A DNA stretch of 63,846 nucleotides, counting the filler, from Reclinomonas americana ATCC 50394 (lineage: Eukaryota): the NCBI GenBank assembly GCA_048213135.1. It is 6 parts of 4 records of this genome, joined end to end, with 100 filler letters (N's around TTAATTAATTAA, not from the genome) between each part and the next. Parts side by side here need not be neighbours in the genome. Positions count along the whole stretch, not along the records: positions 51,333 to 62,336 come from PS015050.1; 5 more parts are not named here. The stretch is one strand, 5' to 3'. Positions 11,201 to 62,436 of this stretch are shown one piece after another (positions within the stretch are counted from its first letter, which is position 1; each line of letters begins with the position of its first letter). Below the pieces are notes generated by a model. The model saw nothing but the letters and a program-made list of their open reading frames with translations. It did no database searches and was not told the origin of the DNA. Made by a program: the position numbers and the translations under genes.

Positions 11201-14200
11201 ATGGTGGGAAACATGGAGCAAGTGACCGTTACAAGGGACGCAACACACACCCCAACACCGCCTCCTTCTGCTGCGGCACGCCAGCGGCTGGCATTGTCAG
11301 AGTTTGTGCGGCAAACGCCGATCGAAGACCCTCACGAGTGGGCCGCGACGGCTCATCGAGATTGGCAGGCTGAATGGACTCCATCTGGTTTCCCTTTCTC
11401 TCTCACACACAACAACAACAACAAGCAAAGGGGAAACGGTCACTTTCGTCCTTGTGTAAACAAAAACTCGAGTTGTCTCGACGTCGGAAAATCAATCAAT
11501 CATCCCGTCATCCCATCAAATAGGGCGCATTCCCGTCGCCACACACAATGACGAGCAGTGTGTGGTCGTGCGTGTGTCTCCACGATGATCCTCTGGCACA
11601 CCACACGTGAGCACAAGCGCAGCGCATTCACCATCTCGCTTCTCTGACACAATTTCAGCAGTGTGCATCGACTCTATGTGGAGTGGCTGGTGCAGCAGTG
11701 GTCTGCACGCGCACCACAGCGTGCGGCACTGCGCAAGGCCATGATGGATCGACATGCATCGCAAGGGGTGGGAGCGCACACAATGTGATGTGCATTTGTG
11801 TGTGTGTGCGTGTGAGATTGATTGACTCGATTGTTGCGATGCAGTTGCCGCCGAGTGGATCGCGACTCGCGCCGACGTGGTTTCTCGCAGAAGAGCGCTT
11901 GTGGCGCGGTGTTGATGCACTACTGGAGGACTTTAGTGGGGAGATGCCGCATGTGAACACTAAGGGGCGCTCGTGGAGACGACAATGGCGAAACGGTGCG
12001 CGAGTGGAATGGCTAGCGCGTCTCCGACTGCTGCTTCCCGTGCTGGAACGTGCGGAGATGGTGGCCTCATTGGTGCACGCGGTGGCTCCGAAAGACAGTG
12101 AGGAGCCATCGTCGGCGGCCTCGGCACTGCTGGTGCGGGCGCATTCGGCTGTGCGTGAGCACGTTCGGGAGCACTTGTCGACGGTGAACGTACGATCTGC
12201 GTTGCGAGATGCATTTGCGGCATTGTTGTTGTCTGTGGAGTCGCGAGAGGTGGTGACGGTGGATCGCAAAGAGCAAGGAGACAAGGGAGATCGACAATGG
12301 TTGTTGTGGGCTCGATGGTTTCAGTGGCGACGGCAGCGGCGGCGACGTCGACAGTGGTTGATGCACACGGAGGCGCGATGGTCGGCAATCGACGACATTC
12401 GTCGCCTTGAGCGTCTGGCGACCGCTCGACTAGACCCGTCGTCGTCGTGGTTGACTGTCGTGTTCTTTCGTTGTTGGGTGTGCCACGTGAGTCGCGTGGA
12501 GCAGCAGTACCCTCCGCTACCACCATTATCGCCTGCATCGCCCCTGTTGGAATCGACGGGTTCTCCCGTGGCCGACGCGCTGCGTTCCGGCGACTGGTCA
12601 TCATTTGGCAGCGGCGCAGTGTTGTGTGCGTGGCGAGGAGTACGTCGAGCAGTCGCCACGTATCCCGATCGCGCCCAGTGGATTACGCCGGCACTCGCAG
12701 CTGCGCTTCGTGCATCTGGTCGAAGCGAATCGCGTCCGTTTGTGCAGCATGTCGTGGCGTGGTACTTGCAACAAGCGCAGTTGGCACGGCGCAAGGAGCT
12801 GGCCGAAATCGGTGCGTGTCAACCGATGGCTGTGCTCCTTCTGCGCCGCTCACATTGTCTGTGTGTGCTCGTAGAGTTTGTGCGCCAGTTTCGCGCCCTC
12901 TTGCTGCAACTACGCGACGCTGTGCATCGTAGCCTCGAGGACTGGCGCTCGGTGGAAGAGGACCTCGGTGTGGACGGAGGCTCGGCAGGCGAAATCACCC
13001 ATTCCAACTTGCTGCGTGAGCAGGTGCGCGCCTTGGAGTGGTACTCGCACGCGCTGGAGCGGGAGTGCATAGAGCGAGAGCAGCTGGCACGCGACGCCCT
13101 GCGTGTGGTGGCCGAGTTGCCAGTTCGGCTGTGTACCACGTTGCGCAGCGCTGGATCGCCGACGACATGTTGGCGCTGTTGCTGACGTGAAGATTGATTG
13201 CACGCAGTGGTGAATGTCGCACAGCGCTTGAGTGTCTGCGCAAGCATGTCGACGAGCCCCTGACGCTCGCCGTGTGCCTGTGCTCGGATTACCTGCCAGA
13301 CTACCTGGCCGTTCTTGTGCCGGCCATGTTCCGTCGCCGCGGTGCTGCCTGGAGTTGCGTCCTGCTATAGGCGCACGCCTGACATGTGTTCACCATCCAA
13401 CCGTCCTCGCCACAGGTCAGCAGTTTGGTGGACACGACGAGATGAACGCAGGGTACACATGCATACACAGTCGTCCGTTTCTTGATTGTTTCGCTCATCT
13501 CGTTTGTGTGTGCGGTAGGTTTCCACTCAACCTTCCGCTGGCGGTGCATGACGCGGTGGCCACTGTCCTTCGCCACCGTGTGGCATCCTCAGGAGCCAAC
13601 TTGCTCCTGCTCGAGGAGTCGCTGATGAACACGAGGTACGCGCCGCAAGTGTGCGCGTCACTGTGAGGTGATTTCCATTTTTTCATCTGAGCTGCAGATT
13701 TGACGAGTGGCTCCGAGAGCTAGACAACGTCGGCACGGGCGCTCGAACAAACGTGGACACGCGGGAGGCTGTGACAGTGTTTCTGTTGCGTTCCACGCAG
13801 TTCGCGGTGCTCATGCACCTGTTTCTTCCCCCCAAAACACTGACTGTGTCGAGTCAGGTTTGAGTTTCTCTGCTCAGCTCTGCCACAACTTTGGCAGACG
13901 GATTTCCACTTTCTGGTGTCGATGCCGACCCACGAACTGCTCGTGGTCAATCGGGTCTTGTTGCGTCGGAGGCAACTGCCAGCTTTTGTCGCCTGCGTGT
14001 GGTGGCTGACAAAAGCATGCGTCGCAGGAGTCACATGGCGAGTGTGGACAACCTCGGTCGCCCACTGCATTCCCTGTGGCACATGTTTTCGGAGAAGAAG
14101 CTGCTGTCCGAGGTCCTTCTCGAGTTGCGTCACCAGCAGGTACTTTATGGTGGCCTCCAGCAACAGTGATTCTCACCGAGTGCATGTCGCAGAAACGAAC

Positions 14201-16200: not shown

Positions 16201-16299
16201 CTGCGGAGATTACACGAAGCAAGTGTCAACAATTCTGCACCGTTTGGGAAAGGGANNNNNNNNNNNNNNNNNNNNNNNNNNNNNNNNNNNNNNNNNNNN

Positions 16300-16311
16300 T
16301 TAATTAATTAA
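16300..16311. other. Artificial scaffold-joining spacer TTAATTAATTAA, also at 27749-27760, 43592-43603, 51277-51288 and 62381-62392
   Basis: Identical 12-mer with stops in all six frames, flanked by about 44 N on each side, at five places. Confidence 0.95.
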
Positions 16312-16355
16312 NNNNNNNNNNNNNNNNNNNNNNNNNNNNNNNNNNNNNNNNNNNN

Positions 16356-27344: not shown

Positions 27345-27808
27345 GTGTGTGTCTGTGTGTGTGTCGTGTGTCCATTTTGTGTGTGTAGCTTTTCTGCATA
27401 TTTTTCCCCCCTTGTTAAGCCGTGGCGGCGGTCACCGGGATTGTGTGACTGCTGCCATTGTGCACGTGTGTGTGATTTCGAAAAGAACTCTTCTGTCTCC
27501 TGAGAAGGAGACGGAGAGGATAAGTGCTGTTGTATGTAGCGTACCGACTAGTGTGTGTGTGTGTGTGAGTGTCTGTCGTATAGTGAAACAAAAAGAAGAG
27601 TCCAACAATTGCCTTCATGTTAATGACTCGATGTGCACCTCAAACATGTTGTTGGAGATGGTGAGGTTCCACCAGATGTGATTGGCGCTGAAGCGACGAT
27701 TGAGNNNNNNNNNNNNNNNNNNNNNNNNNNNNNNNNNNNNNNNNNNNNTTAATTAATTAANNNNNNNNNNNNNNNNNNNNNNNNNNNNNNNNNNNNNNNN
27801 NNNNACAG

Positions 27809-38115: not shown

Positions 38116-40796
38116 ATGAGTGTGCGCGCGTATGTGTGTGCGTTGCCCTCAATCTTCAATTCCATGTGCCTCACTCTCCGCTTCCTCTCTCTCTCTTCCT
38201 CTCTTTCTCTCTCTTGCTCTCTCTCTACACACAGTTGTACGGCGACATTCTGTCGGAGCCCGTGGACGCCATTGTTGCGGTGATTACGGGACCGTCGTAT
38301 TCACTGGCCAACTGCACCATTGCGGATCTGGTGGATCGTGTGGGCTCGAGTGTGCTGGTGCGCGTCTATGTGTGTCTGTCTGCGCCTTTGATCCATCTTG
38401 ACTGATGCGGGTGGCGCGCAGGCGGAGTTCATGCGCAAGTTGTCACAACAGCAGGTCACCACCGGCAGCGTGTTCCACATCTCCGGCGGCGGCCAGCTCT
38501 CGGTGCCGTACATTATCTGTGCTCTGTACGACGGGCGACATGAGGGGCTCGACATGAGCAGTGCGGTGAAGTTGACGGTGCAGCGTGTCATTGAGACCGC
38601 TGACGAGCTCGGCTGCAGCAGCATTGCGTTTGCGAACTTGCACAAGGGTGCGCATGTGTGTCTGGAGAGAGGGCATAGACGTGTGCTGGACTTTGTGAAA
38701 CTCAAAAAGTTGCTGGTCTCGCAGGCTTCTTCCCTGCGCAAGCGTTCTTGCAGGCGGCGCTCCCGGTGCTGCAGCAGGCAGCGGATATGGTCGAATCCAA
38801 CAGCACTTCGGTGCAAGACTTTCGATTCGTCGAGCCGGTGCTCGCCAGTGGTGCCGAGCAGGGTCTGGTCGAGATCATCATGGTCCGGTTTGCGGACGAG
38901 GTTTGTTGAGCGCTGGTAATGGGCGACTCGGGAAGATGGAAGCAGTTTCGATTCATTTTCCGCCCGTCTCCACAGCTCTCTCGCACGCCAGGGTACAAGC
39001 CGCTGGTCGGCGACATTAGCCAGATCGTGAAGCAACCGTCGGCACCGGTCAAGGCTGCCGAGGCGCCTCCAGTCGACCCACGCACGTGCTACGCATCACA
39101 TGTGCGTCTGGCACCGGTGCCGCCCTCTCGTGCTCACGGCGGCGAAGGCAGCATTACCTTTATCGACAAGGGTGCGTATTCATTCTTGCGTGTCTTTTCT
39201 TTTTCTCTTCCCCTACTCACTCCGACTGGCAGGCGACGGCACGCAAATGGTGGCCAGAGCCACAGTTGCACAGCTGATTGAGCATCTCACACAGCACAAT
39301 GCGCACTGTTGCGTCGCGCTCCCCCATTTTGTCTGTCCTCGGTGACCATGCTTACTTGTTGCGTGCAGCCATGTTCACGTTCAGCTTCCTGCTGACCTTC
39401 CGTTCGTTCATGTCGCCGGCCGAACTGGCTGACCGTCTCATCGAGGTGTTCAATCTGATGCCGCCGAGTCTGGAGCCCAAGGAGTTTGCGATGTTCAAGA
39501 AGAACACCCTCGACAGGGTCCGCCTGCGGTCAGTCGTGCATGGCCCTCTCTCGCAGTGTGACGACCACTCTCACGTGCTGCTGCCAGGGTTATCAATGTG
39601 CTGCGCAAGTGGCTGCGCGATTCGCGGCGCGACTTTGAGGATGAGTCGCTGCTGGAGCGCATTCGTGTGTTTGTGAGAGACGAAGTGGCGTTTGTGTACG
39701 GCCCGGCGGCGATGCTGACCACGCAACTGAATGGCGAACTCGACGCATTCGTCCAGTGGCGTGAGGAACAGCGCTTGTCACAACAATCTATCCTGCCCGC
39801 CATTCAAGTGATGCCGGCAAATGCCACGCTCGACGACAAGATTGCCATTGTCTGCAACGACAACATACTCGACAAGTGGGACTCGACGCAGATTGCACAG
39901 CAGGTGAGATCCGTGCGGGAGGGAAATGGTAATGTGAAGGGAGAGTGGAGCTCTGACATCATCATGTGTGCGCAGATTACACTGTTGGTGTTTGACCTGT
40001 TCCAGCGCGTCGAATCGTACGAGTGCGTCGACCGGTACTGGAACATCGAGGGCAAGAAGCACTTGGCACCCAACATTTGCCGCGCCACGGAGCAATTCAA
40101 TCGTTTCTGCAACTGGGTGTCGTCGACGATTGTCACGCAAACGGATCTCAAGAAGCGAAAGAAGTACCTGAAGACCATCATTGAGATCGCAGAGGTATGT
40201 CGTGGTGTCGCCACGCAGAGGCATGGTGTGGTGCTGATGCTCGCTCGCTGCCAGAAATGTCGCACGTACAACAACTTTGAGACGGTGGTCGCGGTGGTGG
40301 GAGCCCTCGGCTCGGCCTCTGTGCGCCGCCTGACCAAGACGTTCGAGCAGCTGTCGAGGAGTGCGCAGGCGCTGTACAACTCGCACATGCGCCTCTTCCC
40401 GGAGAACAAGAACATGAAGGCTTTGCGCGATGCGGTGCGCTCGTCGCAGGGTCCATGCGTGCCCTACCTGGGCCGCTTCCTTACCGACATTATCCTCGCC
40501 GACGCCGGCAACCGCGACAAGGACGATGACCGTCGCATCAACTTCCGCAAGTGCACCATTATCGCCGAGGTCAGTGTTTCCTCTTGGGAAAGTTGTGATG
40601 CCTCCCGTCCTCCATTGCTCACTACGTCGTCGACTTTGCGCAGGCCATTCGCGACATGCAACTGTACCAGCAGTTCCCGTACTCGTTTGCGCGCAACGAG
40701 GAGATACAGAGGCGTCTCGTGTCGCTGCCGTCGCTGAGCGAGGACGAGATGTTTGAGTTGTCGCTGCGGGTCCAACCACGACAACCAAGCCGGTGA
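37555..40796 (+). CDS. Macro domain - REM - CDC25-type RasGEF fusion protein; about 12 introns
   Basis: Macro motifs LYGDILSEPVDAIV, GQLSVPYIICA and GCSSIAF. REM motifs ATVAQLIEHLT and FLLTFRSFMSP. CDC25 motifs IAQQITL, APNI..FNRFCNWV, NNFETVVAVVGALGS and PCVPYLGRFLTD..GNRD..INFRKC. Confidence 0.88.
38052..38114 (+). repeat. (GT)n microsatellite within an intron
   Basis: About 30 uninterrupted GT units directly after a GTGAGT donor. Confidence 0.95.
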
Positions 40797-42351: not shown

Positions 42352-43547
42352 ATGGCGGACGACGGCTCCAAGAACGCGCTTTACCTTGTGTATCAGAAGT
42401 GGCGACTGGCGGGTCCGCATTATGTCACTGAGCCGCATATGCGCGGATTTGAGACGACTGTTGCGTGCGAGCGTGTGTGTGTCGCAAGAGAGTGAGTGCG
42501 AGTGTGTGTCAGTGAGCATGTGTGTGAGGGAGTGAGAGAGTGAAAAGTGTGAGTGTGTGTGTATTTCATGTGTGTCCCCCAGTTCGCGCTTATATCGATG
42601 ATTGCATGCATATAGCTGGAGCTTCCGGCTGAGTTTCGGTTGCCGGCTGGCGAGCGGATAGTGCGTGGTTTGGGCGCGAACAAGAAGAACGCGGAGGCAG
42701 AGGTGGCACGAGCGGCAATGGATTTGTTGCGAAGAGTGCGATGATCATCATCATTTTTCCGCGCGCGCGCGCTTTTGTGTGCATGCTTAGTTGTTGTTGA
42801 TCGCAGAGTGGTCTGCTGGAGGTGATTTCGGGCGGTGCGGTGATTACGAACTCGAAGCAGGACCTATTGGAGTTGCGTCTGTGTATGCATCTCTCGCTCG
42901 CGCCCTTCGCTCACTTCCTGGTGGCAGGCGCGTGAGGCTGGCCCACGGAGACCCCAACGCGATCGAGTATAACTCCTGGTCATCGGGTCCGTCGCATGCA
43001 CCGACATTCACGGCCTCGGTGACGGTGCATGACTTGCCGGCCATGCGGGGAGAGCCACTGGTGGAGGAGGCTGTGGCGTCCACCAAGAAAGGTACGACGA
43101 CACGGCGGTTGTGCCTTCCTGTTGCCTCACACGCGGTTTCGCAGAGGCCGAGAAGCTGGCGGCGATGCAGGCAGTGGAGGTGCTGCAGCGTGCTCTGCTT
43201 GCTTGTTCACACACGTCACGTCCTCACCATGTCACAGAGAATCGACGAACTCTTGCGAGGCAGAGGAGGAGGAGGAGGACGAGGAGGAGAAAGTTCGCGT
43301 GGTTCAGCCTCGTCACCTGCTTCTTATGCCGCTCCCGCTGCACGTCCCCCCGTCTACTCGCCAGCACCGGCTGCCGCGTCGCGTGTGACACCCGCCTCGT
43401 CACCGTATTCCGCATCGCCGAGCTCGCCGGCATCCGCCTCGTCGTCGCGGTCGTCTCCCGCCGCCGCACTGGCCTCGTCGTTTTCTGTTCTATCGACCGC
43501 CGCGCCTCGATCCCCTGCGCGTCATACGGCCCCGACATTCTCTGCCG
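42352..43547 (+). CDS. Protein with two dsRNA-binding domains; 3' end truncated
   Basis: dsRBD1: SKNALY..P.Y..GFETTL..GLGANKKNAEAEVARAA. dsRBD2: NSKQDLLE..SGPSHAPTFTASVTV..STKKEAEKLAAMQA. Confidence 0.85.
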
Positions 43548-43985
43548 NNNNNNNNNNNNNNNNNNNNNNNNNNNNNNNNNNNNNNNNNNNNTTAATTAAT
43601 TAANNNNNNNNNNNNNNNNNNNNNNNNNNNNNNNNNNNNNNNNNNNNTCTTCTTCTCTCTCTCCTTGTCGTCCTCTCTCTCTCTCTCTCTCTCTCTTTCT
43701 TGTTCTTGACTCGAGGCTCGTTCTCTCCGTTCACTGCACAATCGTTCCTCCCGTTGTCTGTGTGCTCGTCTGCCTTCTTCCGAGTCTTGCTGCCCGTTCC
43801 CTTGTGCCTCCTCTCTTTCTCACCTCCCTTGTCTGTGCGCTCTCTTGTTCTTATCTGCCCTTATTGCTTGACCTGTGTCGTTCTGCCTGCCTCGTTGTGC
43901 CTTGCTCTCCCTCGCCCTCCCCTGTTCTTCGCCTCTCTCTTTGTCCCCTGCTGCGCCTCACATCTCCACCCTCCCTCCCTCTCAG

Positions 43986-46900
43986 AATCCAGCAGCTGCC
44001 GCGAAGTGCGCTTCCGTGGCGACATTCCGCCTCCTCGCAACTCGTCGGCCGCCGTGATGCTGGGCGACTCCTCGCGGCGCATCTTCTTCTTTGGTGGCGA
44101 GCTGCACTCGCACGTGTGCGGACAAGACTGCTACACTCTCGATACGTGTTGCGTGCTCCTCCTCCCCGTCCCCTTTATCCTTCTTCTGACTCACTCCGCA
44201 CTGCCCCGCAGCCATGGACCCCATGATGTGGACGCGGCTGGAGTTCTCGGGCGAGTTGCCGTCGCCGCGATATGGTCACACGGCGGTGCTGGTGGATCCG
44301 CTGCGGGTGTTGGTGTGGGGCGGATGGGATACGCAGCGGAGATTTGCCGACGGCTACCTCTTTGATGTGGCGCGCCTGCGATGTCGCAAGGTGATGTTTG
44401 TCGGCGAGCTGCCACCGGAGCGGGCGTACCATGTGGCGGTGATGTATGAGCCGCACCGAGTGCTGGTGTGGGGCGGATCGGAGGCCAATGAGTGGAGCAG
44501 CGTCGGGTACACGCTCGACACTGGTGTGTGTCGGCGTCCCCTTCCCCCCTTTCTCTCCTTCCTGCACTCACTTCGATAACAGAGCGCTGGAAGTGGAGCA
44601 CCATGGACTTTTACGGCGACGTGCCTCCACCACTGGCCATGTCGGCTGCCGTGCTCATCGGACCCGGCACGGTGCTGCTGTGGGGCGGTGCTGATTTCGA
44701 TCAGGGCCGCCACAACGAGGGCTGGGAGTTGGATCTCGGTTACGCTGCCTTTGATCGTCATTCGCGTGCTCGTATTGTCTCACGCGTTGGCGGCCGATGC
44801 AGAGTCGCTCACTTGGCGACGACAGTCCGACGAGACGCGCGCACGTCCAACTGCGCGCGACGGTCACTCGCTCACGGTGCTGCGGCCGGGGCGTGCGGTG
44901 CTCTTTGGTGGTCACGACGGCGACTATTGCAACGATTTTCACGAGATTCATTGCGGTGTGCTGCTCTTCAGCGTCACCCTCTTGGCGCACACTCGCTTGT
45001 TCCTCACTGTGCCTGCACAGAGGTTGACTCGTCCAACATCTTGCCGACAGACATTCCCCGGCTGGAAAAGATACCGAGCACAGAACACAGCGGCGCGTGC
45101 ATTGCGCTGCGGTGGAATCGCGACGCGTTGGACGCGCTGTCGGCTGCCGTGCGCATCGCTCATCGTGCTCCCGATGGTCGTGTGGAAGGTCTTGTGGCGT
45201 CACCTTTTTCGCAAACCCTCGATAAGCGAAGCGCTCATGTGTGCTGTGTGTGTTAGTCCTGCGCTCGTGTCGCATGTTCCGAGCCGGGTACGGCTCGTAC
45301 CGCGGTTGTGTCATTTCCGACCTGGGTCCTGGCGAGCACTCGTTCCGCTTGGAGGCTCGCATTCTGGTGTCACTCATGGGCACACCGGGCTCGCTGTCGT
45401 CGCAGCCTGGCGTCTCGGTGGCGCCAATGTTGCCGGCCGTTCCGCGCGAAGGCCTCCAGGTGGAGGACTGTGATTGGGTGGTGGGACCGTGGGCACAGTT
45501 TGTTGTCGAATTAGGTGCTGCGCAGTCGTCGTGTATCCGCCACAATCCCTCCCCGTTTCCTCATTCTGCCTTCTTCTCTTCCTTCCTCGGCTCATCCTGC
45601 AGACCCCATCCGTCCGCATGTCGAGAGCGTGGAGACGCACGCCGCGCTGCTGGTGTGGGACTCCGAGTCGCCGTTTCCGCCAGATAGTGCGCCACCCTAC
45701 TTGCCACAGGACCCCGAGCTTTCAAAAGTGGCACACGATGCACTGGTGGAGGCGCGTTGATTCTTCCACTTCTGCCACCCTGAATTGGTCGCTCACACTG
45801 GACGTCGGCGCAGTTTGTCACATTTATTATGGTCCCGCACCCCAAACACAGTGGCACCACGGTTCCCGTTCCGCTGCAGCGTGCCCAATGTGTTGCCGGT
45901 GTCGGAGGTTTGCGTGGGTGCGCGCTTGCCGGCTTGCGCTCTTGTCTCTGACCGAGGAGGAGAGTTTGTAGAGTTCCGCCTGGAGAATTTGGTGCCGGCG
46001 CAGAACTATGTTACGCGAGTCACTGTGCAGGGCTCAACACACGCCGAGTATGTGCCGTTCACCACCAATGCGCTGGGTGCGTCGGTCACATGTGTGTGCG
46101 TGTGTGTGCCGCAACACCTCGTCTCACTCGCAGTCTCGGACAGAGGACGGTCAGCTGCAGGCACTCAGCAACTCACTGCTCGCCGAGTTCACCTCGCGCT
46201 ACGTAGACGTCAACCTCACCTCTGCGTTTCCTGGCTACGTAGGTGGGTGTCGACAAGTGTTGATCGAGCGCCACGTCTTTGTGCTCACTGTCACTCGGCA
46301 GTCTCGCCACTGGAGCGTGTGTCCACCGCTCGTGCCTCGCTTGCCACAACCACTGCCGCGCGCCAAGCCAACTTGTCGCCCGACCTGTCAGTGGTCCTCA
46401 CCAACACTCTCCAGTTCCTGGATTCAACCGGCGATGTTGTGGGCGCGGATCTCTTCGCCTCGACACAATCGTACGTCCATTGTTCCACTCGTGAATGCAC
46501 TTGTGCCGGGTCGACCCCTGATTTATTGCGCCCAGCCTGACTCCTCTTACCGTGTCGGTATTGGAACGCGCGGCTGAGCAAGCCCAGGAACTGGCGCGCA
46601 CGGCGGAGGAGACGGCGGTGAATGTAGCCGATGGCAACCTGCGACTGACGCAGTTTCAGGGCGAGCTTGCCAAGTTGCGTCCATTTTTGTTATTTGCGTT
46701 CCATAACTGCACGCTCGATCTGTCATCTGAGTGCGACTTTGCCGCCTACAGCGCCTCCAGCGAAGTGTCACCCGTTGCGTACCTCACTTGAATGAGAACA
46801 ACGAGTGAGGGTAATTCGCTCACCTCGAAGAGTGCTGCAGGAATCCGACATTGTCGCTGCCGTCGCTGCATCCAATGCCCAGGTCGATCGCGCATCGACA

Positions 46901-48021
46901 GGTGAGAGAGACAACAACAGCACGATACCGTCGTTGCGAGGGCGCGCACTGATAATCATGGGTACCACTCCCGTCTCTCGCACAGTGTGGAAAGAGTGGA
47001 CGAGACTGGATGGCCGACAGCAGCAAGAATGGAAGGCGGTGGAAAAGAGGTATGCACTGAGGTTCTCTCCCCAAGGCTGGACGGCCCTCGCCACCTCACA
47101 TCGCTTGAATCGATGCAGATGTGCCGATGCCGTGCACGTGTTTGACAAACCAGTCAATGAGCTGTGTTCGGAGGTGGAAAGCGAGCGGCTGGATGTGGTC
47201 AGCAGGTTAGCCGAGGCCGCCACAGAACGTCTGGAATTGGAGCAGGAGTGCGCCGAGCTGCGTGCACGCCTCGCTCGCCAAGAGGCTCGGCTGCAAGCTG
47301 TACAAGTGTCGGAAGAGGTCCGTTGCTGACTCTTTTCGTCATTCTGTCTTTCTCTCTCACACACACTCTCATGCGTGTGGTGCCAGACCTTGCGCTCGCT
47401 GGCCGGCTCTAGCGTGCTTCGTGCGGAAATGACTCCGTCCCTGTCCGCTGAAGACGTGGAGCAACGGCGGCTTCTCGTTGATCGACTGAGTCGCGTGCCG
47501 GCATCCTTTCAAGGCGCCGTGCAGCGAGTTGCGTGGATTTGCCCCTGTTGCTTCTCACTGAAACAAGGAACTGACCCTGTGTCGCGAGTACAGATGGTTG
47601 TCGGACCGGCGAATGAGTGGCTCGACGAGTGGCGCGATACACCGCGGCCGGAGATGATGTCGCAGCTGTGGAATCACTTGGACGCGCTTGTGGGCGAAGC
47701 CGGCGCTCTTCACGTGCAGCTGACACGCCAGACGACGATTGCGGCAACTAGCGATCTCGACGACGCCGGAAAACTCGTCTTGCAGCAGCGATTGCGGAGT
47801 GTTGCGTGCTATCTTTCCAGCTAGTTTCATTCGATTGCTGCTCCCTTCTCATCGATCTTCGGTCGCAGATTGCCAGTCGACTAAATCGCCTGCACACACA
47901 CGTGTACCAGGTGGGCCGACTGCTGGGCGAAGACGACGACTCCGTGGCCGAAATGCTCTCCATGCGACGCCGATCCGCAGTGGCCGACGCCAATGGCAGA
48001 TTACCCGGCGGCAATCCGTGA
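43986..48021 (+). CDS. Kelch-repeat / FN3-like / coiled-coil protein; 5' end truncated
   Basis: Kelch repeats PSPRYGHTAVLV..VWGGWD, PPERAYHVAV..WGG and ARDGHSLT..LFGGHDG. FN3-like segments SDLGPGEHSFRLEA and ENLVPAQNYVTRV. Helical C-terminus. Contains a GC-AG intron at 45752-45813. Confidence 0.82.
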
Positions 48022-48198: not shown

Positions 48199-51100
48199 CT
48201 AATGTCTCACATGCACGAAGATATTGCATCGCAACCTTTCCACTGGGCACGCCTCGCCGCTGCGACCAAACACAATCGGGTCCTTCACAACAGTCGGCTT
48301 GAACATGACCGGCTGTTTGCGCAACGGGCGACTGGCACGGCCCTCCTCCGCTTCGACCGGAGCCGCCGGCGCCATCTCCTGCTCGCGCGCGTGCTGCAAC
48401 TGCACCTCGGCCACCACGGCAGCCGCCTCCAGCGACCACATGCGCAGGGAGCTGTCGGTGCCGCCACACAACACAGAGCGACCGTCTGGCGTGACGGCGA
48501 GCGCCGAGACGCGGCCAAATGTCGACACGTCAAAGTGGCACACCTCCATGTCGGTCTGCAGACTCCACACACTCAGCGACTGCGAATCACCGCCGACCAC
48601 CACGAATCGTCCGTCAGGCGGCGTGATGGCCAAGGCACGCACACGCATGGTCGGCGGCAGCATAAGGCACTTGACCTCCCGACCGGACTCCAGATGCCAC
48701 ACACGGAGGGTCTTGTCCCCACCGCCACTGACTGCGTGCACACCGTCGGGCGTGCAAACCACGGCCCCGACCCACTCGGTGTGACCCGTCAGCACCTTGC
48801 TGCTCGTCACAGATGGCTTGTCCACGCAAAAGTCCCACACACGCACGGTGCGGTCCCAACTGCAGCTCACAATGCACGAGTTCTTCGGGCCGACAGCTAC
48901 GCCGCTCACGGAGAGCGAGTGGCTCGTCATGGTGGACACCAGGGCTCCCGCTTCATGCAAATCCCACAGTCGAACGGTGCAGTCGGCGGCGCCAGTCACC
49001 GCGTAGCGCCCGTCGGCACTCACCGCGACCGTCGTCACGTCGTTCTCGTGTCCACTCAACTCGCACTCGGCCGCGCCCCGTGCCACATTCCACACGTCCA
49101 CTTGCCGATGCTTGCTGACGCTCAGAAGGCGCTGGCCATCGGGCGTCACGGCTAGCGCTCGAACAGGGCGCGTTCCGGTCGAGAGGTGCGCGACTGCACG
49201 ACGCGTGCTCAACGACCACGCAATCAGCAGGCCGTCATCGCCGCCACTGACTGCATGCAGTCCGTCAGGCATGGCCACCGTCGCTCGCACCGCCTTGCGA
49301 TGCCCGACCAGCCTCTTGGTGGACAGTGTGGTTGTCTCGACAAACAGTGGAGGAAGATGCAAAGCAGAAGCCGCCGCATCAAACACAGCAGTCGACGCAC
49401 TACCAGCTGCTGCTGACCCACTGTCGTGTCTTTCGCGAGTTGCCACCGTTGTAGCAGCAGCTGCGGGCGGAGAAGTGCAGTCGTCTGCTGGCGCAGGCAA
49501 GATCCACACGCGAAGTGTGCGGTCGTTGCCACCGCTAATGGCGCGGAGGCCATCGCTCGTCACCGCCACCGAATACACAGCTCCGGTGTGTCCCGACAGT
49601 CGCGAGACCACCTCGGCTTCGCATTCTGCGACCGGCTCGCCACTGTCGGTGATCGCCGACGAAAACGAGAGGCGCCACAGCAACAGAGTGTCGTCGTCGC
49701 CAGCCGTGAGGAAGCGTCGCGAGTCGGGAGTGAGGCACACACAGTTGACGCCGTTGGTGTGGGGAGCACGCACGCAATGCACCTGTTGTCCGTGGGCCAG
49801 AGACCACACTCGCACGGTGCAGTCTTTGGCGCCGCTGAGGAGGTGCTGCCCGTCGGACGTCACCACCAGGCTCATCACGTTGCCGGTGTGGCCCTCCAGC
49901 ACCCACAACGGTTGCACGGCAGCGTCACCAGAGTCCACGGCCGCGTCGTCAGATTCGTCGACATGTCGGAGAACATGCTCTTGAGCAGCCTGTGTGGGCC
50001 ACGCCCGGATAAGCTTGTCGTCGCCGGCCGAAAGCAGCAGCTTGCCGTCGGGAGTGGCCACCAGGGTTTCGACGCGGCCCTCGTGACTGCGCATGCAACA
50101 GTGCCGTACGGCCTCCGGCTGCGGGACGTCCTCCAGCTGCCCGAACGACAACGAGGAGCGCACGTGACCCAAGTGAGCCGACGGCATGGCCCACATGCGA
50201 ACAGTGCCATCGGCTGCGGCACTGGCCACAAAGCGGTCATTGTCCAGCAAACACAGCGCCGTGACGGGTTGCCGATGGCCGGAGAACACACGAACGGGGC
50301 GCGACGACAAGTGTGACCACAGCACCAGGTAGTTGTCCCAGCCGCCACTGACGAGCAGCCGATTGTCCGCCGTGGCCACAAGCGCCTTGATGCCGTCGAC
50401 GGCGGTCGCATGCATGCGGAAGACCTTGACTTCCTCGCCCGACGGCAGGTACCACACGCGCATGGTGGCGTCGTTGGAACAGGTGGCGAGGAAACGGCCC
50501 GGTAACGTGATAATTCCGTTGACGTTGCGCTCGTGGCCCTCCAGGCGGCGGACCTCTTCGCCGGTGGCAAGCACCCACACTCGAGCCGTTCGGTCCTTGC
50601 TGCCACTGACAATGTGCAGACTATCGGGCGTGATGGTGACGGCTTGCACCTCATCCGTGTGACCCTCGAAACGATGCACGACTTCGCCCGTAGCCAGTGA
50701 CCAGACCCACACCGTGCGGTCGTTGCCGCCACACACCACATGCCGCCCATCCGGTGTCACCGACACGGAGCGCACGGCATGTCTCTCGCCTTTGAGCTCA
50801 ATGTGCGACAAGCCATCGGCGATCGAGTACACGTACACCAAACGATTGCCGCCGCCAAACACCACGTTCCGGCAGTCGGGGGTAAAGGCGACCGACAGCA
50901 CAAAGCGCTTGTCAGCAGTGGGAATTCGGCGCACCACCTCTCCGGTCTCCACTGACCAGATGCACACATGACCGTCACTGCCACCCGAGACCAAATGTTG
51001 CACGTCTGGCGAGAAAGCTGCGCTCGTGACGATGCTCTCATGCGCCACTGCCTGCCATCGCAGGGCTCCATCGAGAAGCTGCCACACGCGGAGCGTCGAA

Positions 51101-51232
51101 TCTCCCGCACCACCACTTGCCACCAGCAGTCCGTCGGCACTCACGGCCACCGCACAAACGCTAAACTGCGGGTGCGCCTGCAACACATGGAGCGTCTCGT
51201 ACGGCGCCACCGTACACCACACGCGGACAGTG
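48199..51232 (-). CDS. Long WD40 repeat array (well over ten repeats) in a single uninterrupted ORF of about 3 kb; 5' end truncated
   Basis: Repeated GH...V..V.VTPDG...SG..D.T.RVW motifs across 1007 aa with no intron needed. Confidence 0.9.
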
Positions 51233-51332
51233 NNNNNNNNNNNNNNNNNNNNNNNNNNNNNNNNNNNNNNNNNNNNTTAATTAATTAANNNNNNNNNNNN
51301 NNNNNNNNNNNNNNNNNNNNNNNNNNNNNNNN

Positions 51333-52052
51333 TCGCGAGTGCTGTCCGATTGTGCGTCGATACAGCTCGCGCGTGTGGGGATTCTTGCACCTGTCGCTGT
51401 TGGAGCACTGTGTGGCGCGTCATCTGTTTGCACTTGCCAGCTGGCGGCGTCGGTTGCGCGAGGATGATGTGCAAGAGCACATTCTGTGCCGTCGGTCGTT
51501 GGCCGATCGGCACTCTCTGGTCTCCCAGATGGCTGAGGAGGTTCGCCGCTCGGCCTCGCTGCAGGAGCGCCTGTGGGAGATGGTCTCCTTCTCTTCGCGG
51601 TCGCCCGGCAACGAGGCACTGTGCATGGCAGCCGCCAACGCGGCCACCATTTTGTGTGCCGCCCAGGTGTCGTTTTCGGGTCGTGATCTCTCCGGTGTGC
51701 AGCTGCGCGGCAGTGACTTGCGTGATGTGGTGATGCATCGTACTGTGTTCCGCGGTGCCGACCTCTGCGAGGCGAATCTGTTCCGAGCGTTTGCTCTCGA
51801 GGCGAATTTCAGTGAGGCCAGTCTCGATTCCGCTCGACTCGCTCGTGTGCCCTACGATGGTCACACCGACGAAGTGATGTCTGTGGCAGCACTTCCGGAT
51901 TCGCAACACTTTGTCACCGGTGGTCGTGACGGCACTGTGCGCTTGTGGCGGCTCACCAGTGAGGACCCTGTGCACATCTACGTGGGACACTCGGCAGCGG
52001 TGCTCTCGGTGGCGGCCAGTCGCTCGATGGTGGTGAGCGGCAGTGACGATAA
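51333..52052 (+). CDS. Fragment encoding pentapeptide repeats followed by WD40 repeats, as in the NACHT-WD40 linker region
   Basis: AAANAATILCAAQVSFSGRDLSGVQLRGSDL..GADLCEANL..ANFSEASL, then GHTDEVMSVA..TGGRDGTVRLW. Confidence 0.85.
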
Positions 52053-58564: not shown

Positions 58565-58723
58565 TGCCCTGTGGCTCACCGAGGGAGCACGAGGGGTGAA
58601 GGAAGGACGAGATGACTGCGTGCAGGACGCGAAGTGCAATAGGAACGACTTCTCAAGCGGAGCTATGCATGCCCGGATACGAGCAGTGTTCTTTATAGAT
58701 CTGAGAGAGAATGCCAGTTGCTG

Positions 58724-61264
58724 TCAGGCATCATGGTCCGCATCTGGCAGCTCCGGGTGGAACTTGCGCACCGTTTCCCACATGGCCACTGTGAGCTGCT
58801 GGTTGGTATGGTGACGAGCAGACAGTACTGCGTGCTTACGAACCACGCAAGTCGCGAACGCCCAGCTCGTGAATTGCAGCTTCGAACAAGAACTCTTCAT
58901 CGAGTCCTTCCGGGGGCCGTGCGGGTTGCTTTTTTTACAGCAGATGGCAGTGCACGGTGAGAGAGTGAAGGCTCCCACGACGCAGCAACTTGTCACACGC
59001 AACATCGTGCACGTCCACCACCAGCTGTCGGATGGGGTTGAAATAGGCATGGTCCAGCACCTCTTCCAGCGAGCACCGGTCATCCGGGATGAACTGCCAA
59101 CAGGTGAGCATGTATGGCCGGTGATACAGCTTCTCTCTCTGCTCTCACGCCTCTCACCTTGAGAATTTTTCCGATCAGGTCCAGTGCTGTTGGAGAACGT
59201 GAGTGCCACGAACAGGAGAAGCAGCGTGCCGCCGATCATGCACACACCGTCAGCAGGGCAACCAGGCAGCAACTCTGGCCAACCGGGAGGCACGCAGATG
59301 GGTCGGCGGCGGAACCAGCTGCCCATGGCCTCGGCATACTCGCCCTGCGTACTGCCGATGATCCATTCCCTCATCCTCTCATCGAAGCCGACCTTGCGCA
59401 TGATCTCGAGGATTTGGTGGGTCTCTGCATGCAACACGCTGAGCAGGGTGCACACGAGGAGGGAAACCTTGTCCCTCACCTGTTTGGCCGTCCAGCACCG
59501 GTTCGTATACGTCGTAATCTGCAGTCGCAATCGTGCGCGGCTATTGAGACGCACACGACACCTCGCGGGATAAACAAACTGAGAGAAGACAAGGCAAACC
59601 TGTGTCTGGTCTGCGCTGCGCAACGAATGCCACGGTGAGCCAAGTGAGTGGAAGACCATGGAGTGATTGAGAGAGTACTCACAACCAGCTTCTCAAAGTT
59701 GTACATGCGCGCGAGAATGCAGCCTGAAACGGTCAAGTGAGCACGAAGAGATCGTCACACACCGAAAAGAGAAAGAAAAAGACGCACCGTAGCTCCACAA
59801 GTCGAGTGCGGGAAAGAAGGAGAAAAATAGAAAGCAGTGTCAGCAGTTGAGATCATTGCAAGGGAGGGCGCTTGCTAGTCACATATCTCGGTGGTCGTAG
59901 GGCGCTCGCGCAAGAACCTCCGGAGCACCTGTACATGGGTGTGACGATGACATTCTCTGATCGGGCGACAACGCATTGACAACGCAACGGTAGGTCAATG
60001 TTTGTACGAGCGGTGTGTGTTTGTCGCCGGCGCCTGGGTTCTCGAGCATCATGCGTGACAAACCGAGGTCGCACACCTGTCAACCACGTTGAGGAGTGGA
60101 CCAGACGGCGGCACACACCCGTCGTGTTCCGGCTAGCTCACCTTGGCGCCAAGCTTCCCATCATCCCGCGTGAACAGCAGGACATTCTTTGCCGTACTGC
60201 ACACAGCGGCTGGTGAGCGCACCGAGCACATGACAGTGCTTTCCGTGACCAGCAGTCACGCAACAGATCACGGTGGAGAATGTTGGCGTCGCGCAGATAC
60301 TGCAGCGCCTTGGCCATGTCGTACATGATCAGACGCCGGTTTGTCTCGCTGCGATCGTCACTTGCTGGACCAAGGCAGTGAGGACCCATCGAACTGCAGG
60401 CGCGAGCCATCTGAGGTTGAAAGGAGACGACGGTGGTGGTGCACAGGGACGCAACGCCTCCAGTGAACCGCCGTCGACCAGCTCCGTGATAATGTAGACC
60501 TCCTGGAAATCCGCAAAGCGTGGACTTGGCGGTTTGAGGTCGAGCAAGCGCATGATCTGTGAACATTACAAGGGTGAGGCAGTGGCGATGGGTGCGAGAG
60601 TGGAGACCGACGACGCAACATTCGGGTGGAATACACGTGACAACAGTCGAAGCTCACGGAGCAGGCTGCAGAAGCGACATGAGGGCGATGGGGGGCGATG
60701 AGGTGAGGCATGGAAGATGAGTAGCTACCGTTGGACGTAGACTTTGGCACACTGGTGACTGTCGCACATGTCAGCGTCAACACGAGAGACAGGCAGACAT
60801 ACGGAGAGAGACGAAACTCCAAACGAAGAGACACACGCTAGAGGGGTCAAAGCCACATTCGTCAGTGACTATACCAACGCCTGACAGCAGAGAGAAGCCT
60901 CACCTTGACAGCCACCTCCAGCCTGCCATCATGTTCGGAAAAAATGCAAGACAACTGAGCGCCAGGAAAAGTCAGGAGACGAAGGTAGAAAGAGCATCAG
61001 ACCTAGCTCTTCGGCACTGTCCATCTGTGCGTGTGAAGAAGAGTGGTGAGAGAGAGAGACAGGAAGAGATAATGTCAGATGCGATCGTTTCTCATGATCA
61101 TCGATGGTATTCAAGCAAGCAATCGCTGCGTAACACTGCATCGCACGCACCCACAGTCAGTCAACGCAGATGCATCACCACTGGCCACACAACGCAACTG
61201 CTCCGCCACCGAGGAAACCTTCCTCAGTCATGTCGACAACACATTGAGCACCCACTGGCCACTC
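58724..61264 (-). CDS. Atypical CMGC (MAPK/CDK-like) Ser/Thr protein kinase; 5' end in an N gap; about 15 introns including a 1-nt exon and an AT-AC intron
   Basis: Spliced motifs FLGGGAYGQC, EVAVK, RLLRELRLL..HPNIMRLLD, FQEVYIITEL, ILHRDLTAKNVLL, KVCDLGLSR, VQTLTYRAPEV, VDLWSYGCI, ALDLIGKILKFIPDDR..LDHAYF, and a MAPK-like tail FLFE..KFHPE. Confidence 0.9.
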
Positions 61265-61695
61265 CTGCACACACGCAACCAACGAGTCAGGCGAACGAAG
61301 GAGGGAGAGGAGAGGAGANNNNNNNNNNNNNNNNNNNNNNNNNNNNNNNNNNNNNNNNNNNNNNNNNNNNNNNNNNNNNNNNNNNNNNNNNNNNNNNNNN
61401 NNNNNNNNNNNNNNNNNNNNNNNNNNNNNNNNNNNNNNNNNNNNNNNNNNNNNNNNNNNNNNNNNNNNNNNNNNNNNNNNNNNNNNNNNNNNNNNNNNNN
61501 NNNNNNNNNNNNNNNNNNNNNNNNNNNNNNNNNNNNNNNNNNNNNNNNNNNNNNNNNNNNNNNNNNNNNNNNNNNNNNNNNNNNNNNNNGAAGATGGAGA
61601 GAAGACCGCACCTGCTGAGCCATGTTGACAACGAAGGACGCAACTCGCGAGTCATTGTCTTGCTTACTTACTTGCGTGCGACACGGAGAGAGAGG

Positions 61696-62336: not shown

Positions 62337-62436
62337 NNNNNNNNNNNNNNNNNNNNNNNNNNNNNNNNNNNNNNNNNNNNTTAATTAATTAANNNNNNNN
62401 NNNNNNNNNNNNNNNNNNNNNNNNNNNNNNNNNNNN

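What the first reader, a model, noticed from the sequence alone, without database searches (positions are those of the whole stretch)
59929..60619. Conserved kinase motifs pin down shifted donors to the nucleotide
These introns are the best internal proof of the shifted class. Splicing at T|GTTGCGT (60619) gives HPN|IMRLLD. Intron 60197-60264 (CT|GTTGCGT..CAG|T) gives HRDL-TAKNVLL. Intron 59929-59988 (C|GTTGCGT..CAG|GT) gives TLTY-R-APE. Intron 60394-60455 also starts GTTGCGT. Cleavage one base later, as a TT donor, would frameshift these conserved motifs. The dsRBD gene offers the same test at 42872 (NSKQDLLE-RV).
Basis: partly seen in the sequence, partly recalled or inferred. Interest (0 to 1): 0.75.

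Follow-up and report, generated by a model that had tools for sequence, protein, structure and literature searches.

The report
Invariant GTTGCGT intron donors in kinase gene
A protein kinase gene of an unidentified GC-rich eukaryote is cut into 19 small exons, and a third of its introns begin with the same seven letters, GTTGCGT, an unusual splice signal that is common across this stretch of genome.

Summary
On the minus strand, four introns of 60-68 nt (60619-60557, 60455-60394, 60264-60197, 59988-59929) start GTTGCGT and end CAG. Removing them gives one unbroken kinase domain (89.0 bits against a home-built kinase profile). They lie in a complete 19-exon, 395-codon MAPK-like gene (61231-58836), where 6 of 18 introns start GTTGCGT.

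The heptamer is the most over-represented complex 7-mer in the window: 48 seen, 15.7 expected, 0 of 100 shuffles reach 48. 28 of 45 testable copies are followed by a branch-like motif and YAG at intron distance, against 60 of 249 one-letter variants.

A donor moved alone breaks the frame. Moving both ends by +1 gives an identical protein at three introns and I to V at the fourth. So the kinase motifs fix intron length, not the cut site. GT-AG is chosen because it is the only placement with the same end dinucleotides at all four introns.

These donors form a discrete class with almost no G at exon position -1 (2 of 26, against 37 of 74 for other donors). Best reading: ordinary GT-AG introns recognised in a register shifted by one base. 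No RNA data or U1 gene was available.

The parts
58836..61231 (-). Complete MAPK-like protein kinase gene: ATG at 61231, TAA at 58838-58836, 19 exons, 395 codons open, 18 introns of 44-106 nt
   Evidence: Exon chain built and translated. The spliced core aligns as one domain to a kinase profile built from database proteins, at 89.0 to 93.9 bits. The exon carrying HRD matches Pfam Pkinase positions 96-123, E 0.0037. Its best solved relative is Mitogen-activated protein kinase 6, 6yky_A, E 0.0048.
60557..60619 (-). Class II intron, 63 nt, phase 0: aat|GTTGCGTC..GTTCACAG|atc. Joins HPN to IMRLLD
   Evidence: Retention gives 1 stop and splits the profile match. Branch-like GCCTCAC lies 18 nt from the 3' end.
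60394..60455 (-). Class II intron, 62 nt, phase 2: ggc|GTTGCGTC..GCCTGCAG|ttc
   Evidence: Retention gives 3 stops and the score falls to 12.3 bits.
60197..60264 (-). Class II intron, 68 nt, phase 2: tct|GTTGCGTG..GTGTGCAG|tac. Joins HRDL to TAKNVLL and keeps the D-to-N spacing of the catalytic loop
   Evidence: Retention gives 2 stops and 44.5 bits. Branch-like CGCTCAC lies 17 nt from the 3' end.
59929..59988 (-). Class II intron, 60 nt, phase 1: acc|GTTGCGTT..ATGTACAG|gtg. Joins TLTY to R-APE
   Evidence: Retention stays in frame with no stop, but inserts 20 residues before APE and costs 16.5 bits (72.5 against 89.0).
61136..61198 (-). Further class II intron of the same gene, 63 nt, phase 0: gca|GTTGCGTT..CGATGCAG|tgt. 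It lies just after the glycine-rich start of the kinase
58929..59003 (-). Further class II intron of the same gene, 75 nt, phase 0: gat|GTTGCGTG..AAAAAAAG|caa. It is the last intron
   Evidence: After it the frame stays open to the TAA stop.
59806..59886 (-). Intron with no GT-AG solution. Best placed as AT-AC: gag|ATATGTGA..TCCCGCAC|tcg, 81 nt
   Evidence: The frame that carries DLWSYG opens only at 59839, and there is no AG between there and 59806. The AT-AC placement gives the usual APE-to-DxWSxG spacing and the best score among slides -3 to +3.
60620..60665 (-). Exon encoding LLRELRLLSRVFHPN (helix C glutamate and HPN)
60265..60393 (-). Exon ending in HRD plus a split Leu codon (catalytic loop)
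59989..60076 (-). Exon encoding VCDLGLSR..TLTY (DLG motif and activation segment)
42872..42927 (+). Class II intron in the dsRBD gene, 56 nt: gga|GTTGCGT..GGTGGCAG|gcg
   Evidence: The downstream exon 42929-43090 matches Pfam dsrm positions 16-52, E 0.0052, which is below the curated cut-off.
39308..39368 (+). Class II intron, 61 nt, upstream of the RasGEF domain exon
   Evidence: Sequence. RasGEF domain E 4.3e-49 in 39562-40737. The intron boundaries here were read by eye and not tested against a profile.

Best explanation
These are ordinary spliceosomal GT-AG introns of an intact MAPK-like kinase gene in an intron-rich, GC-rich eukaryote.

They belong to a discrete and abundant intron class whose 5' splice site is the invariant heptamer /GTTGCGT. 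That class makes up 6 of 18 introns in this gene and about 26-28 sites in the window. It shares its length (median 68 nt), branch motif (CTSAY about 19 nt from the 3' end) and CAG 3' end with the other introns. The other introns carry canonical donors with a G at exon position -1: G|GTGCGT, G|GTGAGN and G|GTATGT.

Proposed mechanism (inferred, not shown):
- The 5' splice-site helix forms in a register displaced by one base.
- The intron's own G+1 occupies the slot that exon G-1 fills in canonical donors. U+2 is the single tolerated mismatch. UGCGU pairs as it does in G|GUGCGU.
- Later steps (U6, U5, Prp8) still cut in front of the GU.
- Because one mismatch is already spent, every other position must pair. 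That would explain why the heptamer is invariant.
- This needs a U1 5' end that pairs with C at the GCGU position, for example ..ACGCACC.., rather than the human-type ..ACUUACC..

I put the first part (real GT-AG introns of a real gene) at about 0.9. I put the shifted-register mechanism at about 0.45.
For: Shown:
- Splicing gives one continuous kinase domain. Donor-only shifts or retention break or weaken it.
- The whole 19-exon chain is open for 395 codons from ATG to TAA.
- GT..AG is the only common placement of the ends at the four introns.
- The heptamer is enriched: 48 against 15.7, with 0 of 100 shuffles reaching 48. It is specific, as its one-letter variants are at background.
- 28 of 45 copies have an intron-like 3' module, against 60 of 249 variants and 4 of 46 reverse complements.
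- Anchoring on 221 branch+CAG modules, GTTGCG is the most enriched hexamer 55-82 nt upstream (29 against 5.4). Next come GGTGCG (20 against 5.0), GTGCGT (19 against 4.6) and GGTGAG (14 against 3.7).
- Exon position -1 is G in 2 of 26 class II sites, against 37 of 74 canonical-type sites, Fisher p 1.2e-4. It is A or T in 22 of 26.
- Within the gene, -1 G occurs at 0 of 6 class II donors and 9 of 12 others (p 0.0045 by hand).
- GTTGAGT, the shifted version of the common GTGAGT donor, is not enriched (7 against 7.5) and is intron-like in only 1 of 7 cases. This fits a one-mismatch budget.

Known precedent: shifted and bulged 5'ss/U1 registers are established in human cells (passages read in PMC4856993 and PMC9311317).
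Against: - No RNA evidence: no sequencing run was listed. No U1 gene could be read, because the genome is not held and Rfam finds nothing in the window.
- With a human-type U1 5' end, RNAduplex finds no stable helix for class II sites in any register (-3.1 to +0.5 kcal/mol). AAG|GUGAGC gives -9.6 and GGUGCGU gives -5.0. The mechanism therefore depends on an unverified U1 sequence.
- The preference for T at -1 (11 of 26) is not explained by pairing in the shifted register. Only A would pair.
- The intron-like test uses a loose motif. Its background rate is 24%.
- The kinase profile was built from only 10 TKL-type domains taken from six database proteins.
Confidence: 0.55

Rival explanations
1. 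A dedicated recognition factor. A second U1-like snRNA, or another 5'ss-binding factor, with a 5' end fully complementary to GUUGCGU (..ACGCAAC..) defines class II as its own intron type. A canonical U1 serves the AG|GUGAG introns. Branch site and 3' end are shared with the major class.
For: - The two classes are discrete and not a continuum. The heptamer is invariant and its 21 one-letter variants are at background.
- Canonical-type donors in the same gene (AAG|GTGAGC and similar) fit a human-type U1 well, at -9.6 kcal/mol. Class II does not fit it in any register, at -3.1 to +0.5.
- Variant U1 snRNAs exist in human cells (PMC3561869 and PMC10870369; only the search listing and the start of each abstract were seen).
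Against: - No such RNA was seen. The window has no snRNA match and the genome is unavailable.
- A single U1 adapted to GUGCGU explains the same facts with fewer parts.
- W at -1 cannot pair with one fixed partner base.
Confidence: 0.25
2. A diverged minor (U12-type) intron class.
For: As in U12-type introns, a long and nearly invariant 5' splice-site word coexists with degenerate major-class donors. The gene also holds an AT-AC intron.
Against: - /GTTGCGT does not resemble /RTATCCTT (consensus recalled, not from a call).
- The branch motifs of class II introns (nnCTSAC) match those read by eye in the other introns of the gene. They are not TCCTTRAY.
- Six in one gene would be extreme.
Confidence: 0.05
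3. The heptamer is a relic of a mobile 'introner' element that spread and created these introns.
For: Many introns of similar length (62-77 nt for most) share an identical end word and cluster in some genes: four at 13354-14130 and four at 46674-47807.
Against: Interiors are barely more alike than shuffled sequence. Over 435 pairs of 30 introns the mean local score is 7.35 against 6.72 in shuffles, and the best pair scores 17 against 11-15. The small excess is expected from the shared branch and pyrimidine signals. No terminal inverted repeat was noticed at the 3' ends (by eye).
Confidence: 0.03
4. The introns are really TT..GN (non-canonical), cut one base later at both ends.
For: The encoded protein is the same or nearly the same (88.4-89.0 bits). 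The kinase motifs therefore cannot exclude it.
Against: The 3' terminal dinucleotides would then be GA, GT, GT and GG, with no common rule. Slide 0 gives GT..AG four times out of four, and CAG or AAG at all six class II introns of the gene.
Confidence: 0.03
5. The locus is an unexpressed pseudogene, or the pattern is a chance or assembly artefact.
For: The assembly is a gapped draft: N runs and spacers. No RNA run could be listed (reported under Tried and rejected only).
Against: - 395 codons stay open across 19 exons.
- VAVK, the helix-C Glu, HRD..N, DLG, APE and DxWSxG are all intact.
- The same donor word marks intron-like sites in other genes of the window.
Confidence: 0.04

Closest known systems
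Shifted-register and bulged-register 5' splice sites recognised by U1 snRNA in human cells (Roca and Krainer 2009; Roca et al. 2012; Tan et al. 2016)
   Same: There is an extra nucleotide between the GU and the block that pairs with U1, so that all base pairs are displaced by one while the cut still falls in front of the GU. The passages read describe the shifted register, a bulge at +3 (or +2), and the point that U6 pairing need not follow the U1 register (PMC4856993; PMC9311317).
   Different: - In humans these are rare, heterogeneous sites, counted in tens to hundreds in PMC4856993. Here a single invariant heptamer is the commonest donor word, making up 6 of 18 introns in one gene.
- The paired block is GCGU, not AAGU, so a human-type U1 does not fit.
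- The 2009 paper itself was not held, and what I say of it is recalled.
Canonical U2-type GT-AG introns of short-intron, intron-rich protists and fungi
   Same: Length of 60-80 nt, a CTRAY-like branch motif about 19 nt from the 3' end, YAG at the 3' end, and micro-exons. For comparison, Plasmodiophora brassicae introns have median 55 nt and top branch word tctgac, in the table read in PMC2483917.
   Different: Canonical donors are degenerate (GTRNGT-like) with G at -1. Class II is a fixed 7-mer with almost no G at -1. The comparison with P. brassicae is an analogy only. The organism was not identified.
U12-type (minor spliceosome) introns
   Same: There is a second intron class, marked by a long and nearly invariant 5' word, living beside the major class in the same genes.
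   Different: The word is different and there is no distinct branch consensus. Membership is not supported.
U2-type AT-AC introns
   Same: Intron 59886-59806 starts ATATGT and ends CAC. That is a canonical-looking donor and acceptor with only the first and last bases changed together.
   Different: This applies to one neighbouring intron, not to the GTTGCGT class. The category is recalled from the literature (Wu and Krainer 1997), not taken from a call.

Membership tests
Spliceosomal GT-AG (U2-type) intron | GT at the 5' end and AG at the 3' end | tested here: met
   All four flagged introns, and all six GTTGCGT introns of the gene, start GT and end AG. Slide 0 is the only common placement of the ends.
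Spliceosomal GT-AG (U2-type) intron | Branch-point motif a short distance upstream of the 3' end | tested here: met
   CTSAY with the branch A a median of 19 nt from the 3' end in 28 of 45 sites. The background rate is 24% in one-letter variants of the heptamer.
Spliceosomal GT-AG (U2-type) intron | Removal restores an open frame and a conserved protein | tested here: met
   89.0 bits as a single domain, and retention or donor-only shifts break it. 395 codons are open across the gene.
Spliceosomal GT-AG (U2-type) intron | Spliced junctions seen in RNA | not testable with these tools
   No sequencing run could be listed for the locus.
Shifted-register 5' splice site | One extra base between GU and the U1-pairing block, relative to the organism's canonical donors | tested here: met
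   GTTGCGT against G|GTGCGT, the two most enriched donor words upstream of 3' modules.
Shifted-register 5' splice site | Intron G+1 takes the place of exon G-1 | tested here: met
   -1 G in 2 of 26 class II sites against 37 of 74 canonical-type sites, p 1.2e-4. This is statistical, not mechanistic.
Shifted-register 5' splice site | More stable pairing to U1 in the shifted register than in the canonical one | tested here: inconclusive
   With a human-type U1 5' end no register is stable. The organism's own U1 is unknown.
Shifted-register 5' splice site | Rescue by suppressor U1 in the shifted register only | not testable with these tools
   This is a bench experiment.
U12-type intron | /RTATCCTT donor and TCCTTRAY branch site | tested here: not met
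   The donor is GTTGCGT and the branch words are nnCTSAC. The U12 consensus itself is recalled.
Introner element family | Sequence similarity along the whole intron among copies | tested here: not met
   Mean pairwise local score is 7.35 against 6.72 in shuffles. The best pair scores 17 against 11-15.
Protein kinase domain (Pfam PF00069), MAPK-like | Match to the family profile above its cut-off | tested here: inconclusive
   - Only single exons could be given to Pfam. The HRD exon scores 17.1 bits, E 0.0037, against a cut-off of 31.7. The other 8 pieces give no kinase hit.
- The spliced protein scores 93.9 bits against a home-built profile.
- The best solved match is MAPK6, E 0.0048 over 27 residues.
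Protein kinase domain (Pfam PF00069), MAPK-like | Catalytic motifs: VAIK Lys, helix-C Glu, HRD..N, DFG, APE | tested here: met
   VAVK, LLRELRLL, HRDLTAKN, DLG, APE and DLWSYG are all present in the spliced translation. The MAPK TxY motif is not present; the sequence reads TPL at that place, judged by eye.

The most novel reading that the evidence does not exclude
This organism runs two separate 5' splice-site recognition systems on otherwise identical U2-type introns. A canonical U1 serves AG|GUGAG-type donors. A second, dedicated U1-like RNA or other factor, complementary to GUUGCGU, serves about a third of all introns. That would be a third intron type, defined at the 5' end only.
Probability: 0.2. 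Interest if true: 0.8.

Novelty: new variant of a known kind. Interest (0 to 1): 0.45.

Why it matters
If it holds genome-wide, a whole lineage uses a donor offset by one base as a main splice signal, not as a rare exception. That offers a natural system for asking how U1 binding and the choice of the cut site are uncoupled. It also shows how a 5' splice-site word and its recogniser co-evolve.

In practice, gene finders trained on GTRAGT donors with G at -1 will mis-model about a third of the introns of this genome. They would shift frames in genes such as this kinase.

The search for prior description was limited. The text searches for the literal heptamer turned up only primers, aptamers and similar. 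Sequence logos in figures and supplementary files were not seen, and the organism is unknown.

Tried and rejected
- RNA evidence: no RNA or DNA holder was listed for 58700-61300.
- Whole genome: none is held. Exact 40-base scans of genome contigs and metagenome contigs found nothing.
- Close homologues to guide a spliced alignment: the 58-aa exon and the 42-aa exon found none in the word-indexed search. The exhaustive search with the 42-aa exon gave only 6 proteins at E up to 0.001, all multi-kinase TKL-type proteins. I used these to build the profile.
- Organism identity was not resolved. The best relatives of the neighbouring mitochondrial carrier are 61% identical and unnamed. The Atlas look-up was uninformative. 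Rfam found no RNA gene in the window.
- Earlier findings of this scan: nothing by place, sequence or words.
- Pfam on single exons: 8 of 9 pieces gave no kinase hit. The 58-aa exon has no solved relative.
- Literature by literal motif: nothing relevant among the papers listed. The Plasmodiophora lead is only an analogy.
- My own early suspicion that the stretch between VAVK and LLRELRLL needs non-AG acceptors was wrong. Two small GT-AG exons (60837-60803 and 60758-60729) solve the frame and give an SP..HQ..QR..LRE stretch.
- The home-built profile cannot choose between the two N-terminal models: GT-AG intron 61060-60955 or AT..AC 61095-60933. They score 93.8 and 93.9 bits.
Full report
**What is there**

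The flagged interval lies inside a minus-strand gene. Reading that strand, four segments of 63, 62, 68 and 60 nt start with GTTGCGT and end with CAG:
- 60619-60557
- 60455-60394
- 60264-60197
- 59988-59929

The exon after it matches Pfam dsrm positions 16-52 at E 0.0052, below the curated cut-off.

**Is it more than chance?**

- GTTGCGT occurs 48 times in the window against 15.69 expected (sd 4.3). None of 100 dinucleotide-preserving shuffles reaches 48.
- Between 58997 and 61644 all 8 copies lie on the gene's strand.
- Against an order-3 Markov model it is the most over-represented 7-mer after the artificial TTAATTAA spacer and the dinucleotide repeats (48 against 14.4).
- None of its 21 one-letter variants stands out. 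For example, GTTGAGT is 7 against 7.5, and the largest excess is GGTGCGT at 27 against 18.9.
- Of the 45 copies with N-free flanks, 28 are followed by a CTSAY word and a YAG at intron-like distances. The figure is 60 of 249 for the one-letter variants and 4 of 46 for the reverse complement.
- In those 28, the median length is 68 nt and the branch A lies a median of 19 nt from the 3' end.
- Working from the 3' side gives the same answer. Among 221 CTSAY..CAG modules, the most enriched hexamer 55-82 nt upstream is GTTGCG (29 against 5.4). Next come GGTGCG (20 against 5.0), GTGCGT (19 against 4.6) and GGTGAG (14 against 3.7).

**The gene**

I could extend the model to a complete open frame:
- ATG at 61231 and TAA at 58838-58836.
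- 19 exons and 395 codons.
- 18 introns of 44-106 nt.
- Exons as small as 16 nt (59615-59600) and 18 nt (59805-59788).

Six introns start GTTGCGT: the four flagged ones plus 61198-61136 and 59003-58929. Eleven are other GT-AG introns. One (59886-59806) has no GT-AG solution.

The catalytic motifs are all intact in the spliced product: VAVK, the helix-C Glu, HRDLTAKN, DLG, APE and DLWSYG.

Only unaltered window sequence may be handed to the library tools, so Pfam saw single exons only.
- The HRD exon matches Pkinase positions 96-123 (E 0.0037, 17.1 bits, below the cut-off of 31.7). The other eight pieces gave no kinase hit.
- The best solved relative of that exon is Mitogen-activated protein kinase 6 (6yky_A, E 0.0048 over 27 residues).

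To score the spliced product I built a profile from ten kinase domains. These came from six database proteins returned by the exhaustive search with the HRD exon. This is a small, TKL-type profile. It serves for testing continuity across junctions, not for classifying the kinase. 'MAPK-like' rests and on motif comparisons made by eye.

With the proposed junctions, the 173-residue core aligns to the profile as one domain of 89.0 bits.

| Change | 60619 | 60455 | 60264 | 59988 |
|---|---|---|---|---|
| Donor moved +1, CAG| kept: score (bits) | -3.6 | 12.2 | 45.3 | 65.2 |
| Donor moved +1, CAG| kept: stops | 4 | 4 | 2 | 1 |
| Intron retained: score (bits) | 76.4 (match split in two) | 12.3 | 44.5 | 72.5 |
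| Intron retained: stops | 1 | 3 | 2 | 0 |
| Both ends moved +1: score (bits) | 88.4 (I to V) | 89.0 | 89.0 | 89.0 |

But when both ends move by +1 the protein is unchanged at three introns and changes I to V at the fourth. At 59988, and at the dsRBD intron, even the mRNA is identical, because the bases on either side of the slide are both G. Slides from -3 to +3 cost at most 6.3 bits.

The conserved motifs therefore fix intron length and phase, not the cut site. What fixes the cut site is consistency. Slide 0 is the only placement with the same terminal dinucleotides at all four introns (GT..AG). Slide +1 would give 3' ends of GA, GT, GT and GG. I accept the GT-AG placement on that ground. 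A cDNA would decide three of the four junctions, because they differ by one base.

**What kind of introns are these?**

The interiors of 30 GTTGCGT introns are barely more alike than shuffled sequence. The 30 are the 28, with 60455 reset to its frame-supported 62 nt, plus 59988 and 39308. The mean local score is 7.35 against 6.72, and the best pair scores 17 against 11-15. So they are not copies of a mobile element.

Their branch words (nnCTSAC) look the same as those I read in the other introns of the gene. They bear no likeness to the U12-type signals as I recall them.

The difference lies at the 5' end only, and it is discrete.
- The other donors have G at exon position -1: 9 of 12 in this gene, and 37 of 74 intron-like GTGCGT, GTGAGN, GTATGT and GTACGT sites in the window.
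- GTTGCGT donors almost never do: 0 of 6 in the gene and 2 of 26 in the window, Fisher p 1.2e-4. They have A or T at -1 in 22 of 26 cases, where base composition predicts 41%.
- Aligned on TGCGT, the commonest canonical context (G|GTGCGT) and the heptamer (|GTTGCGT) differ at one base. The cut lies one position further upstream in the heptamer.

**How it probably works (inference)**

This is the geometry of the 'shifted register' described for rare human 5' splice sites. There, all U1 base pairs are displaced by one, while later steps still cut before the GU (passages in PMC4856993, and PMC9311317; the original 2009 paper was not held).

In that register:
- G+1 sits where exon G-1 normally pairs.
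- U+2 is a mismatch.
- UGCGU pairs as in GUGCGU.

A one-mismatch budget would explain two things. It explains why the heptamer is invariant. It also explains why GTTGAGT, the shifted form of the frequent GTGAGT donor, is neither enriched nor intron-like (7 against 7.5; 1 of 7).

The weak point is the partner. With a human-type U1 5' end, RNAduplex finds no stable helix for these sites in any register (-3.1 to +0.5 kcal/mol). AAG|GUGAGC gives -9.6 and GGUGCGU gives -5.0. So one of two things must hold:
- the organism's U1 pairs with C in GCGU (for example ..ACGCACC..), or
- a second, dedicated factor such as a variant U1 (..ACGCAAC..) reads this class.

I could not read any U1 gene. The window has no Rfam match, the genome is not held, and exact-match scans of the two contig collections were empty. 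The T preference at -1 is unexplained by either model.

**What remains open**

- There is no expression evidence of any kind. None was listed, and this counts neither for nor against.
- The organism is unknown. The nearest relatives of a neighbouring carrier protein are 61% identical and unnamed.
- I cannot say whether this donor class has been described for its lineage. Text searches for the literal word found only unrelated primers, aptamers and the like. Logos in figures and supplements were not seen.
- The N-terminal part of the gene model is uncertain. The choice is between intron 61060-60955, with a weak GTCTCT donor, and an in-frame AT..AC alternative at 61095-60933. The profile cannot choose (93.8 against 93.9 bits).

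**Verdict**

- The class itself is a new variant of a known kind. It is of moderate interest now, and would be of high interest if a dedicated recogniser exists.

Noticed in passing
window 59806-59886 (-): This intron has no GT-AG solution. The DLWSYG frame opens only at 59839, and no AG lies between there and the exon. The ends fit AT-AC (gag|ATATGTGA..TCCCGCAC|tcg), which is a canonical-looking donor and acceptor with the first and last bases changed together.
   Followed up: partly
window 60933-61095 (-): A second possible AT..AC intron (c|ATGAGAAA..CCGAAC|atg) lies in the N-terminal part of the kinase gene. It is in frame and gives a normal glycine-loop-to-VAVK distance. It competes with a GT-AG model (61060-60955) that has a weak GTCTCT donor. 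The profile cannot choose between them.
   Followed up: partly
window 59600-59615 and 59788-59805 (-): Micro-exons of 16 and 18 nt are needed to keep the kinase frame. Both are flanked by good GT-AG signals.
   Followed up: yes
window 16256-16355, 27705-27804, 43548-43647, 51233-51332, 62337-62436: Five spacers each read 44 N + TTAATTAATTAA + 44 N, with stops in all six frames. They look like artificial joins between contigs, so the window is probably several contigs of a draft assembly. Other N runs (20-903 nt) are ordinary gaps.
   Followed up: no
whole window: TGCTGAC is enriched (39 against 14.6 expected). CTSAC words sit about 19 nt upstream of intron ends. This is a likely branch-point consensus, with C or G where most eukaryotes have A or G.
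   Followed up: partly
window 13354-14130 (+) and 46674-47807 (+): Two further clusters of four GTTGCGT each lie on one strand, most with intron-like 3' modules. These are probably other intron-rich genes using the same donor class. Their proteins were not examined.
   Followed up: no
window 48202-51231 (-): A 1010-residue open frame without introns, made of WD40 repeats (18 matched stretches, E 3.7e-132), sits beside genes cut into tiny exons. Intron density is very uneven here.
   Followed up: partly
window 178-891 (-): A mitochondrial 2-oxodicarboxylate carrier-like exon (SLC25A21-type names on the hits). The best of 176 relatives is only 61% identical, and the top ones are unnamed environmental sequences. 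The organism seems unrepresented in the protein collections.
   Followed up: partly
window 39308-40737 (+): A RasGEF gene (domain E 4.3e-49) with a GTTGCGT intron (39308-39368) in its N-terminal part. A second GTTGCGT lies at 39358, inside that intron.
   Followed up: partly
window 51333-52052 (+): An open frame that by eye reads as pentapeptide-type repeats followed by a WD40 unit. It was not run against any library.
   Followed up: no
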